DNA from: Eledone cirrhosa
Taxonomy: Eukaryota
Reading direction: 5' to 3'
Length of the DNA stretch: 64,000 nt
NCBI GenBank assembly: GCA_964016885.1
Contig: OZ024744.1
Location: forward strand, 24,924,001 to 24,988,000
Both the position numbers and the translations under genes were made by a program. Of the stretch, positions 4,206-43,830 are shown one piece after another. Under the pieces are notes generated by a model that saw only the letters and a list, made by a program, of their open reading frames with translations, did not search any database and was not told the DNA's origin. Positions within the stretch are counted from its first letter, which is position 1. Every line of letters starts with the position of its first letter.

Positions 4206-4350
4206 CCTCATTTCTACAGCTGAGTAAACTGGAGCAATGTGAAATAAAGTGTCTTGCTCAAGGAAACAACACATCACCCGGTCTGAGAATTGAACTCACA
4301 ACCTTTCGATTGCAAGCCGAATGCTCTAACCACTAAGCCATGTGCCTTCA
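4206..4350 (-). mobile_element. tRNA-derived SINE family 1 (head and core)
   Basis: Minus strand reads GTGAAGGCACATGGCTTAGTGG (A box)...GAGTTCAATTC (B box), then AGCAAGACACTTTATTTCACATTGCTCCAG, which is shared with the 38.2 kb copy. Confidence 0.85.
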
Positions 4351-10671: not shown

Positions 10672-10707
10672 TCTTCTGATGACGGACTGGCGTCCGAAAC
10701 GTTAAGA
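10672..10707 (+). ncRNA. Minimal type I hammerhead ribozyme motif (Penelope-type)
   Basis: TCTT-CTGATGA-c-GGAC(TGGC)GTCC-GAAA-CG-TT-AAGA: 4-bp stem I, 4-bp stem II, palindromic ACGT stem III, one extra nucleotide after A9. Confidence 0.65.
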
Positions 10708-13297: not shown

Positions 13298-13390
13298 GAG
13301 ACTGAGGTTGGCTGGACATGCTCACCGACATCCAGAGTTGATATATAAATATATATACATATATAACGTATATATATATATTTATATATA

Positions 13391-13512
<122 letters not shown>

Positions 13513-13618
13513 TATATATTTATATATAAATATATATATATTAATATACATATATTATAAAAATTATAATTATAAAAAATAAACAAAGAAGCCTTCAATA
13601 CATCAAAAGTATTTATTA

Positions 13619-13659
13619 GCTGACAGTGTTTCGTCCCATTAATAAGGACTCATCAGAGC
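13619..13659 (-). ncRNA. Type I hammerhead ribozyme motif with fully canonical core and GUC site
   Basis: Minus strand GCT-CTGATGA-GTCC(TTATTAATG)GGAC-GAAA-CACTG-TC-AGC. All core nucleotides are present, G10.1-C11.1 pairs, and cleavage is predicted between 13622 and 13621. Confidence 0.85.
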
Positions 13660-13942
13660 AAGGAAATAAACAAGAAGTATTAACGGCCAGAACAAGCCAA
13701 TACTCAGAAGAATAGGGAATTGATATTTAGGAAAATTTAGGAAAGTTAACTTGGAAAGACATGCTAAAGCTAAAAGGGTGCATTTGTAAATATAGACTAT
13801 AGGGCAAGAGAGCAAGTAAGACATTAAAACAAACCCACGTTGAAAGTACCATACAAGTCTAATACATGAAACACAACATAGTAATACAATGTGAGAATTA
13901 TAATACAATATACAATACAATAGATAATAAGAAATAAAAAAC

Positions 13943-14027
<85 letters not shown>

Positions 14028-14602
14028 CCACACTCACTCTGACACACATATAAACACATTTACACAAACACATACTAGCACAGATATAAATATAAATATA
14101 AACATTATAATAGAATAATAACCCTGGCGGTGTGAATAAGTAATACCAGAATCAATGGAATAATATATTGACATCAAAATATATATAAAAATACATCATA
14201 CGTATCATTTAAAGTCAACAAAATGTGCATAAATTATTTCACAGGGTAAGAAAAAAAAATAATAATACCATATAATAAATTATAGTATGGTGAAAAAATA
14301 TATATATAAATATATATAATATAGACAACAAATATACAGAGGTATAAGTAGTTCAAATTCATACAATATTACATATCAATACATCAAACCGGACACATAC
14401 TCATATTTCAATTACATATAATATAATATAATAATATTAAAATATTTCAATAAATATACAGAGGTATAGGCAGCTCAAATCCATATAATATTACATATCA
14501 GTACTTCATACTCTGTTGGATAACATTGAGCTATATCCTATACTGTCATTTCTCTAATACGACGAGTGTGTTTAACTCTAATGCACTCAAGTATTTTAAT
14601 CT

Positions 14603-14651
<49 letters not shown>

Positions 14652-14661
14652 TTATATATAT

Positions 14662-14748
<87 letters not shown>

Positions 14749-14749
14749 C

Positions 14750-14839
<90 letters not shown>

Positions 14840-14876
14840 GTATTTATATATTGATTTATATATATATATATATATT

Positions 14877-14936
<60 letters not shown>

Positions 14937-14939
<3 letters not shown>

Positions 14940-43587: not shown

Positions 43588-43656
43588 ATATATTTTATTA
43601 TACATATTTCAAAGGTACTATGGTGTTTAAGTACGTTTTCATCAGACAAAATATAT
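43588..43656 (-). ncRNA. Type I hammerhead motif (left arm of the palindrome)
   Basis: ATATATTTTGT-CTGATGA-AAAcGTAC(TTAAACACCATA)GTACcTTT-GAAA-TATGTA-TA-ATAAAATATAT. Confidence 0.7.
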
Positions 43657-43761: not shown

Positions 43762-43830
43762 ATATATTTTGTCTGACGAAAACGTACTTAAACACCATAG
43801 TACCTTTGAAATATGTATAATAAAATATGT
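43762..43830 (+). ncRNA. Type I hammerhead motif (right arm of the palindrome)
   Basis: CTGACGA at 43773, GAAA at 43808, AUA triplet with cleavage predicted after 43819, and an ~11-bp AT-rich stem I. Confidence 0.7.

What the first reader, a model, noticed from the sequence alone, without database searches (positions are those of the whole stretch)
13560..13900. Textbook hammerhead ribozyme (GUC site) hidden between (TA)n tracts
Seen: the minus strand at 13659-13619 has a complete hammerhead core (CUGAUGA, a 4-5 bp stem II with G10.1-C11.1, GAAA, short stem III, GUC, 3-bp stem I). Established: minimal type I hammerheads occur in the pseudo-LTRs of Penelope-like elements and in non-coding retrozymes, and often cleave as dimers. 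Inference: this is a Penelope- or retrozyme-type unit with no recognisable ORF that could cleave any transcript crossing it on the minus strand.
Basis: partly seen in the sequence, partly recalled or inferred. Interest (0 to 1): 0.75.

Follow-up and report, generated by a model that had tools for sequence, protein, structure and literature searches.

The report
Hammerhead ending a Hydra-type retrotransposon
This is a real hammerhead-ribozyme motif, one of about 3,000 similar copies in this genome, at the end of a cut-short Penelope-like jumping gene of the already described Hydra type; it likely cuts RNA only weakly on its own, and two small hairpins behind it likely mark where copying into DNA starts.

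Summary
The hammerhead at 13659-13619 (minus) is real: all core bases, stem II, GUC site at 13622|13621. It is not a 340-bp stand-alone unit. It ends a 1,046-bp two-armed, 5'-truncated insertion (13560-14605) in a (TA)n tract; the 13946-14024 tract is internal. The genome holds 2,991 matches to the motif. Long copies carry an RT plus C-terminal GIY-YIG frame on the same strand, with Hydra-clade motifs, so this is a Penelope-like element, not a retrozyme. Across 84 copies the core shows no lineage-shared changes (0/15 columns against 52/160 in flanks), the cut-site base is never G, and stem I covaries: selection acted on source elements. Stem III is a 7-nt near-palindrome, so cleavage likely needs a dimer or protein help; cleavage is untested. 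No 5' end lay at the cut site (0/46). Insertions end at two fixed sites, +52 and +154 from the cut site (22/24 two-armed copies use one each), each 5-9 nt before a bulged GCUC/GAGC hairpin also visible in published Hydra consensi. The scan noted Hydra hammerheads and these hairpins before, on other DNA. Verdict: new family of a known kind.

The parts
13341..13559 (.). (TA)n target tract, left flank
   Evidence: TRF; family homology stops at 13568
13560..13567 (-). Short reiteration of the U-run/AUAA unit at the element's 3' end (end site 1, about +52 from the cut site)
   Evidence: a similar reiteration in 12 of 49 site-1 ends
13568..14508 (-). Main arm: last ~0.94 kb of the 3' UTR / pLTR of a Hydra-clade Penelope-like element, 5'-truncated, no coding sequence
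   Evidence: 71% over 905 nt to the 3' end of full-length copy L081; no tblastn hit
13590..13688 (-). Hammerhead with extended, interrupted stem I (predicted)
13619..13659 (-). Type I hammerhead core with stems I (proximal), II and III
13621..13622 (-). Predicted cleavage site, 3' of C17 (13622)
   Evidence: position in core; H17 is C 66, A 12, U 6, G 0 of 84 copies
13623..13629 (-). 7-nt near-palindromic stem III segment (3+1+3), dimer-compatible
   Evidence: intermolecular duplex -1.6 against 2-bp hairpin +3.7 kcal/mol; centre base varies C/U
13612..13617 (-). AAUAAA just 3' of the cut site; forms part of stem I, poly(A)-signal role not shown
13946..14024 (.). (TA)n tract internal to the 3' UTR, length-variable between copies
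14297..14511 (.). Internal ~123-nt duplication in the 3' UTR (82% alike), shared by the family
14511..14605 (+). Inverted second arm: only the ~95-nt 'tail' (= the element's 5' UTR start), ending at end site 2 (+154)
14511..14531 (+). Remnant of bulged hairpin 1 (first G of GCUC lost at the junction)
14603..14937 (.). (TA)n target tract, right flank

Best explanation
The motif is the type I hammerhead in the 3' end repeat (pLTR) of a Hydra-clade Penelope-like retrotransposon, and the window holds a 5'-truncated, two-armed, non-coding copy inserted in a (TA)n microsatellite; the ribozyme likely cuts the tandem transcripts of source elements, as a dimer or with protein help, and likely does little at this locus. 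Inferred cycle: a source element in partial tandem is transcribed; the RT-endonuclease protein binds two bulged hairpins of the 5' UTR, cuts both strands of a (TA)n tract and primes reverse transcription just 5' of each hairpin, one start per DNA end; both cDNAs run back through the intact hammerhead into the 3' UTR and stop early, giving a long arm ending at site 1 and an inverted arm ending at site 2. The template is therefore uncut, or cut and re-joined, at the hammerhead. Shown: motif, copy number, linkage to the frame, selection signature, two end sites, hairpin positions. Inferred: cleavage, dimer need, hairpin binding, order of events.
For: 2,991 pattern matches, reversed control 0; 13 exact 41-nt copies including this one. 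Of the 20 best protein-search loci, 18 carry the window's 3' block downstream of the frame on the coding strand, 15 with a pattern-intact hammerhead. L081 has an 860-aa stop-free frame with RW[R], PADKT, FDI..Y, YRDD, GIY-YIG-like core, CxxC-E and N..CxH; CxCx5C in 12 of 20 loci; by eye collinear with Hydra-1_Obim and Hydra-1_Ajap in the supplement of PMC8557442. In 84 copies not fetched by the ribozyme pattern: 0 of 15 core columns but 52 of 160 flank columns carry variants shared by 4 or more copies (Fisher p=0.006), while private changes are alike (1.07 against 1.2-1.3 per column); pair 2.1:1.1 is U-A in 58 and C-G in 22; H17 never G. (TA)n follows 49 of 49 site-1 and 47 of 49 site-2 ends. 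22 of 24 two-armed insertions have one arm per site. Hairpins start at +60 and +160. Hydra hammerheads in File S2 have the same odd-numbered palindromic stem III on the sense strand near the 3' end. Two adjacent RT start sites and protein-assisted cleavage were shown in vitro for a Poseidon element (PMC11167929).
Against: Cleavage was not tested. Rfam score is below threshold. The active monomer fold is 4.5-15.9 kcal/mol above the predicted minimum in the 4 copies folded. None of 46 upstream-pLTR 5' ends lies within 10 nt of the cut site, and 34 run through it, so there is no genomic footprint of a cut linear template. Only 3 of 25 pairs change on both sides, which 148 of 500 shuffles equal; the stem I covariation is probably one event. 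The two arms of one insertion are each other's best match in only 11 of 20 cases, so a single RNA template is not shown. Pfam gave no RT hit and GIY-YIG only below cut-off (E 3e-4 and 8e-3); no solved-structure match. No tree against named Hydra sequences was built. The unit (4.5 kb) is longer than described Hydra elements (<3 kb).
Confidence: 0.85

Rival explanations
1. Non-LTR retrozyme: a short non-coding tandem repeat processed into a circular RNA.
For: Type I hammerhead with 4-bp stem II and no unpaired base at 9/10.1, as in canonical retrozyme hammerheads (PMC7229834 passages); this copy has no frame.
Against: No tandem array here; same-strand hammerhead spacing in family tandems is 4,459-5,637 nt in 4 loci; the block is the 3' end of a coding element in 18 of 20 protein-selected loci.
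Confidence: 0.03
2. The hammerhead cuts and re-joins the RNA into a unit-length circle, which is the real template; running past one round makes the upstream pLTR.
For: 34 of 46 full-length copies were copied through an intact hammerhead upstream of the 5' UTR and none stops at the cut site; both start sites lie 3' of the cut site; model proposed in PMC4209133.
Against: An uncut tandem linear transcript predicts the same footprint; for PAc unprocessed RNA was the main substrate and ribozyme mutants inserted normally in vitro (PMC11167929); arm identity test inconclusive.
Confidence: 0.3
3. The fold is kept as a structural or protein-binding element or as a passenger, and does not cut in vivo.
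For: No 5'-end pile-up at the cut site; weak predicted active fold; PMC8557442 raises that hammerheads may parasitize PLEs; no RNA ends at the site for PAc.
Against: The cut-site base varies among C, U and A but is never G in 84 and 114 copies, and the catalytic core is invariant between lineages: the pattern expected from selection on cleavage chemistry.
Confidence: 0.2
4. This copy is a host-co-opted cutter of transcripts crossing the locus.
For: Core intact in this copy.
Against: 69 of 84 copies are equally intact and private changes accumulate in the core as fast as in flanks, so intactness reflects youth (98% to nearest copy); single ribozyme, no same-strand partner; no host gene identified here.
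Confidence: 0.04

Closest known systems
Hydra clade of Penelope-like elements (Craig et al. 2021, PMC8557442; section 11, passages, supplement part 2 of 59 and search hits read), e.g. Hydra-1_Obim, Hydra-1_Ajap
   Same: C-terminal GIY-YIG, RW[K/R], DKT, CxCx5C, CxxC and CxH motifs; (TA)n targets; sense-strand hammerhead near the 3' end with odd palindromic stem III; inverted truncated arm; tail at one end only.
   Different: Different hammerhead sequence from Hydra-1_Obim (File S2); unit about 4.5 kb with a 1.7-kb 3' UTR and 860-aa protein (about 150 aa longer than the 708-aa median of 120 relatives) against <3 kb; tail about 100 nt against 30-40; paper reported few non-cnidarian families, here thousands of copies.
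PAc, Poseidon element of Anolis (Frangieh et al. 2024, PMC11167929; parts 1-2 of 4 read, figures not held)
   Same: Two internal RT start sites bounding the tail; AT-rich target; both strands cut; hammerhead not needed for insertion in vitro.
   Different: Other clade; one AC-rich stem loop inside the frame; here starts are ~100 nt apart in the 5' UTR, each before its own copy of a bulged hairpin.
Minimal PLE hammerheads (Cervera and de la Pena 2014, PMC4209133; parts 1-2 of 4 read)
   Same: pLTR location, weak palindromic stem III, predicted dimer action.
   Different: No unpaired base between 9 and 10.1; stem II of 4-5 bp rather than 7-8; long interrupted stem I.
Metazoan non-LTR retrozymes (PMC7229834 passages; bioRxiv 10.64898/2026.07.22.740005 part 1 of 5)
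   Same: Type I hammerhead of canonical stem II size.
   Different: Retrozymes are non-coding tandem units of about 200-400 nt; this family is coding and dispersed.

Membership tests
Type I hammerhead ribozyme | Conserved core and three helices with open stem I | tested here: met
Type I hammerhead ribozyme | Rfam RF00163 gathering score | tested here: not met
   17.7 bits against 34, E=0.2
Type I hammerhead ribozyme | NUH cleavage triplet and stem covariation among copies | tested here: met
   H17 never G in 84; 2.1:1.1 U-A 58 / C-G 22; overall both-side changes weak
Type I hammerhead ribozyme | Self-cleavage at H17 | not testable with these tools
   no bench test; no RNA run listed
Type I hammerhead ribozyme | Loop 1-loop 2 tertiary contact | tested here: inconclusive
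   3' part of loop 2 and unpaired U at 13615 are near-invariant; contact not modelled; literature search empty
EN+ Penelope-like element | Single frame with RT and GIY-YIG endonuclease | tested here: met
   860-aa frame in L081; GIY-YIG Pfam below cut-off; absent from the window copy
EN+ Penelope-like element | pLTRs from partial tandems, inverted truncated arm, tail at one end | tested here: met
Hydra clade | C-terminal EN; RWK; DKT | tested here: met
   RWR and PADKT in P0003; definition
Hydra clade | CxCx5C linker; CxxC and CxH around E and N | tested here: met
   CxCx5C in 12 of 20 loci, CxxC plus CxH in 10 of 20; L081 has one extra residue in the linker
Hydra clade | CCHH motif absent | tested here: inconclusive
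   no CxxC inside the GIY-YIG core, but two Cys spaced C-x7-C occur; 4 of 5 aligned relatives lack both
Hydra clade | (TA)n insertion preference; hammerhead at 3' end | tested here: met
   96 of 98 outer ends followed by (TA)n
Hydra clade | Placement in RT phylogeny | not tested
   named reference proteins were only seen in the supplement, compared by eye
Non-LTR retrozyme | Short non-coding tandem units each with a hammerhead | tested here: not met
Naiad clade | N-terminal EN, no canonical hammerhead | tested here: not met
   EN is C-terminal

The most novel reading that the evidence does not exclude
Hydra-clade elements carry a duplicated bulged hairpin (GCUC, variable inner stem, 2-nt bulge, GAGC), conserved across at least three animal phyla, that docks the RT-endonuclease dimer and sets two reverse-transcription start sites, one for each end of the cut (TA)n target. 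That would explain the Penelope 'tail at one end only' and two-armed insertions, and give a portable RNA tag for microsatellite-targeted insertion.
Probability: 0.55. Interest if true: 0.6.

Novelty: new member of a known kind. Interest (0 to 1): 0.33.

Why it matters
The ribozyme itself is an ordinary PLE hammerhead. The family is useful because it is young and large: it gives a clean selection signature for cleavage chemistry, at least one stop-free 860-aa protein, and a precise two-site, two-hairpin footprint. Together these make two open questions testable in one system: what PLE hammerheads do, and how PLEs choose their two start sites.

Tried and rejected
Rfam gathering scan: no hammerhead. 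5'-end pile-up at the cut site: 0 of 19 and 0 of 27 (30 examined, 3 gave no anchored alignment; L142 and L143 share one junction). Single-template test by arm identity: 11 of 20, uninformative. An early idea that the T-rich 3' UTR was an antisense coding frame was dropped: the RT frame lies on the ribozyme strand; no systematic antisense test was run. The 170-codon stop-free frame at 13639-14151 spans the (TA)n tract and was treated as an artefact. PDB sequence search: no match. Mid-stem I register drawn by hand had low predicted probability in this copy; the family pairing there rests on U-run/A-run conservation and may slide by one base. Searches for a printed description of the hairpins found none: main text of PMC8557442, supplements of PMC11167929 (text only; its figure S2C shows a fold that I could not see). 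Look-ups near this place and by sequence in earlier scan notes gave nothing relevant.

Full report
Observation. The minus strand shows the motif as described: CUGAUGA at 13656-13650, stem II closed by G10.1-C11.1, GAAA, a 2-bp stem III with a 3-nt loop, GUC ending at 13622 and a proximal 3-bp stem I. Rfam's type I model aligns end to end but below threshold (17.7 bits, E=0.2). A strict descriptor finds two hits in the window against 0.01 expected (3 of 300 resampled windows had one). It is not chance.

Extent. A DNA search of the own genome (3.0 Gb, host not named) had 1,816 first-look candidates, of which 40 were scored, all 87-100% identical over nearly the whole 386-nt query. A tighter pattern gave 2,991 matches with 0 in the reversed control; 13 copies match the 41-nt ribozyme exactly. 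In 26 of 29 other loci the family continues beyond the (TA)n at 13946-14024, so that tract is internal. The window copy is a minus-strand arm 13568-14508 joined to an inverted 95-nt arm 14511-14605, between (TA)n tracts 13341-13559 and 14603-14937.

Identity. Longer copies carry a frame upstream, on the ribozyme strand. Of the 20 best loci of a protein search, 18 have the window's 3' block downstream and 15 a pattern-intact hammerhead. L081 holds an 860-aa stop-free frame whose stop lies 1,669 nt before the ribozyme; the unit is 4,509 nt, and ribozyme-to-ribozyme spacing in four tandems is 4,459-5,637 nt. The protein has RWR, PADKT, RT motifs, a C-terminal GIY-YIG-like core, CxxC-E and N..CxH; CxCx5C occurs in 12 of 20 loci. 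These are the Hydra-clade features of Craig et al. 2021 (PMC8557442, section 11). By eye it is collinear with Hydra-1_Obim and Hydra-1_Ajap, but its hammerhead differs from that of Hydra-1_Obim, so it is another family. A protein search gave 356 unnamed relatives; the 120 listed are 34-43% identical, median 708 aa. Pfam found only a sub-threshold GIY-YIG. No tree was built. The window copy has no coding remnant.

Selection on the ribozyme. I aligned 114 copies (111 after stricter de-duplication; arms of one insertion count separately). In the 84 not fetched by the ribozyme pattern, none of 15 core columns has a variant shared by four or more copies, against 52 of 160 flank columns (p=0.006); private substitutions are equally frequent in core and flanks. 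So source elements were selected, and inserted copies decay neutrally. The cut-site base is C 66, A 12, U 6, G 0. Pair 2.1:1.1 is U-A in 58 and C-G in 22. On 40 hand-picked of 100 distinct copies, an extended stem I reaching 13688/13590 is paired in 93-97% of cells (slid controls of the whole structure 34-51%), mostly through one-sided changes; only 3 of 25 pairs change on both sides, which shuffles often equal. Stem III is a 3+1+3 near-palindrome: duplex -1.6, hairpin +3.7 kcal/mol, the same design as Hydra hammerheads in File S2. The active monomer fold is 7.4 kcal/mol above the minimum here (tertiary contacts not modelled). Published metazoan PLE hammerheads cut little as monomers (PMC4209133) or only with the element's protein (PMC11167929).

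Ends. Copies end at two sites, about +52 and +154 from the cut site; 49 of 49 and 47 of 49 such ends run into (TA)n. The stretch between them is the start of the 5' UTR in tandem copies. Of 25 arm pairs, one was dropped as a truncated second view of L091; 22 of 24 have one arm at each site, one has two site-1 and one two site-2 arms. The window copy follows the rule. This matches the two adjacent start sites shown for PAc. After a lead from earlier scan notes I tested for hairpins: a GCUC / inner stem / UU / GAGC hairpin begins at +60 and again at +160. The motif was found in 44 of 46 tail-bearing ends and in 23 of 30 loci of the second lineage, where 6 copies start inside or after it; the inner stems of the two hairpins differ in sequence; hairpin 2 of the second lineage was fetched with its own outer pattern, so only its inner part is unbiased. 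Site-2 ends fall at offsets 71-73 after hairpin 1 in 41 of 54 non-run-on cases, the same offsets that lie 6 nt before hairpin 2 in run-on copies. By eye the same motif with other inner stems stands twice at the start of Hydra-1_Ajap and once at the 3' ends of Hydra-2_Ajap and Hydra-2_Amil (File S7 excerpts). I found no printed description, but the library is partial and figures are not held.

Against a cut linear template. Among full-length copies with 5' UTR, none of 46 upstream ends lies within 10 nt of the cut site; 34 run through it and 12 begin after it. The template was intact at the ribozyme: uncut tandem RNA or a re-joined circle. My data do not tell these apart.

Verdict. A real, selected hammerhead at the end of a truncated copy of a new, abundant Hydra-clade family. 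Known kind; cleavage untested; no sign of a host role. The paired-hairpin start signal is the one part that may be new to print, and the scan has noted it before in other Hydra families. Hammerhead numbering is standard knowledge, recalled.

Noticed in passing
window 10676-10706 (+): Second hammerhead of an unrelated family, min-HHR type with an unpaired base after A9, right after a (TA)n tract; passes the strict descriptor.
   Followed up: partly
window 43601-43645 (-) and 43773-43822 (+): Inverted pair of hammerhead-like cores inside a fold-back of about 360 nt, a third family; like cores occur in L033 and L082.
   Followed up: no
window 4283-4340 (-): Partial tRNA match (Rfam 38.5 bits), possibly a tRNA-derived SINE head.
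   Followed up: no
site-1 ends, e.g. L075, L080, L083, L108; window 13555-13567: The U-run/AUAA unit is reiterated in 12 of 49 site-1 ends, 4 of 49 site-2 copies and 0 of 13 run-on copies: a hint of repeated priming by a telomerase-related RT, or of later slippage.
   Followed up: partly
L088 257-2364 (-): Five hammerhead-like cores at about 525-nt spacing, a retrozyme-like tandem array of another family next to a Hydra element.
   Followed up: no
P0003 residues ~500-590 and ~670-705: Two low-complexity N/S/R-rich insertions, about 150 aa together, absent from four of five aligned relatives.
   Followed up: partly
L074 343 (-): A copy 85% identical in RT carries a different, longer-stem-II hammerhead and no match to this family's 3' block, suggesting 3'-end exchange or an unrelated neighbour.
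   Followed up: no
L094-L118 lineage: Most first-listed pattern matches belong to a lineage with a 6-nt loop 2 and GUU or GUC sites, more abundant than the window's 9-nt-loop lineage.
   Followed up: partly
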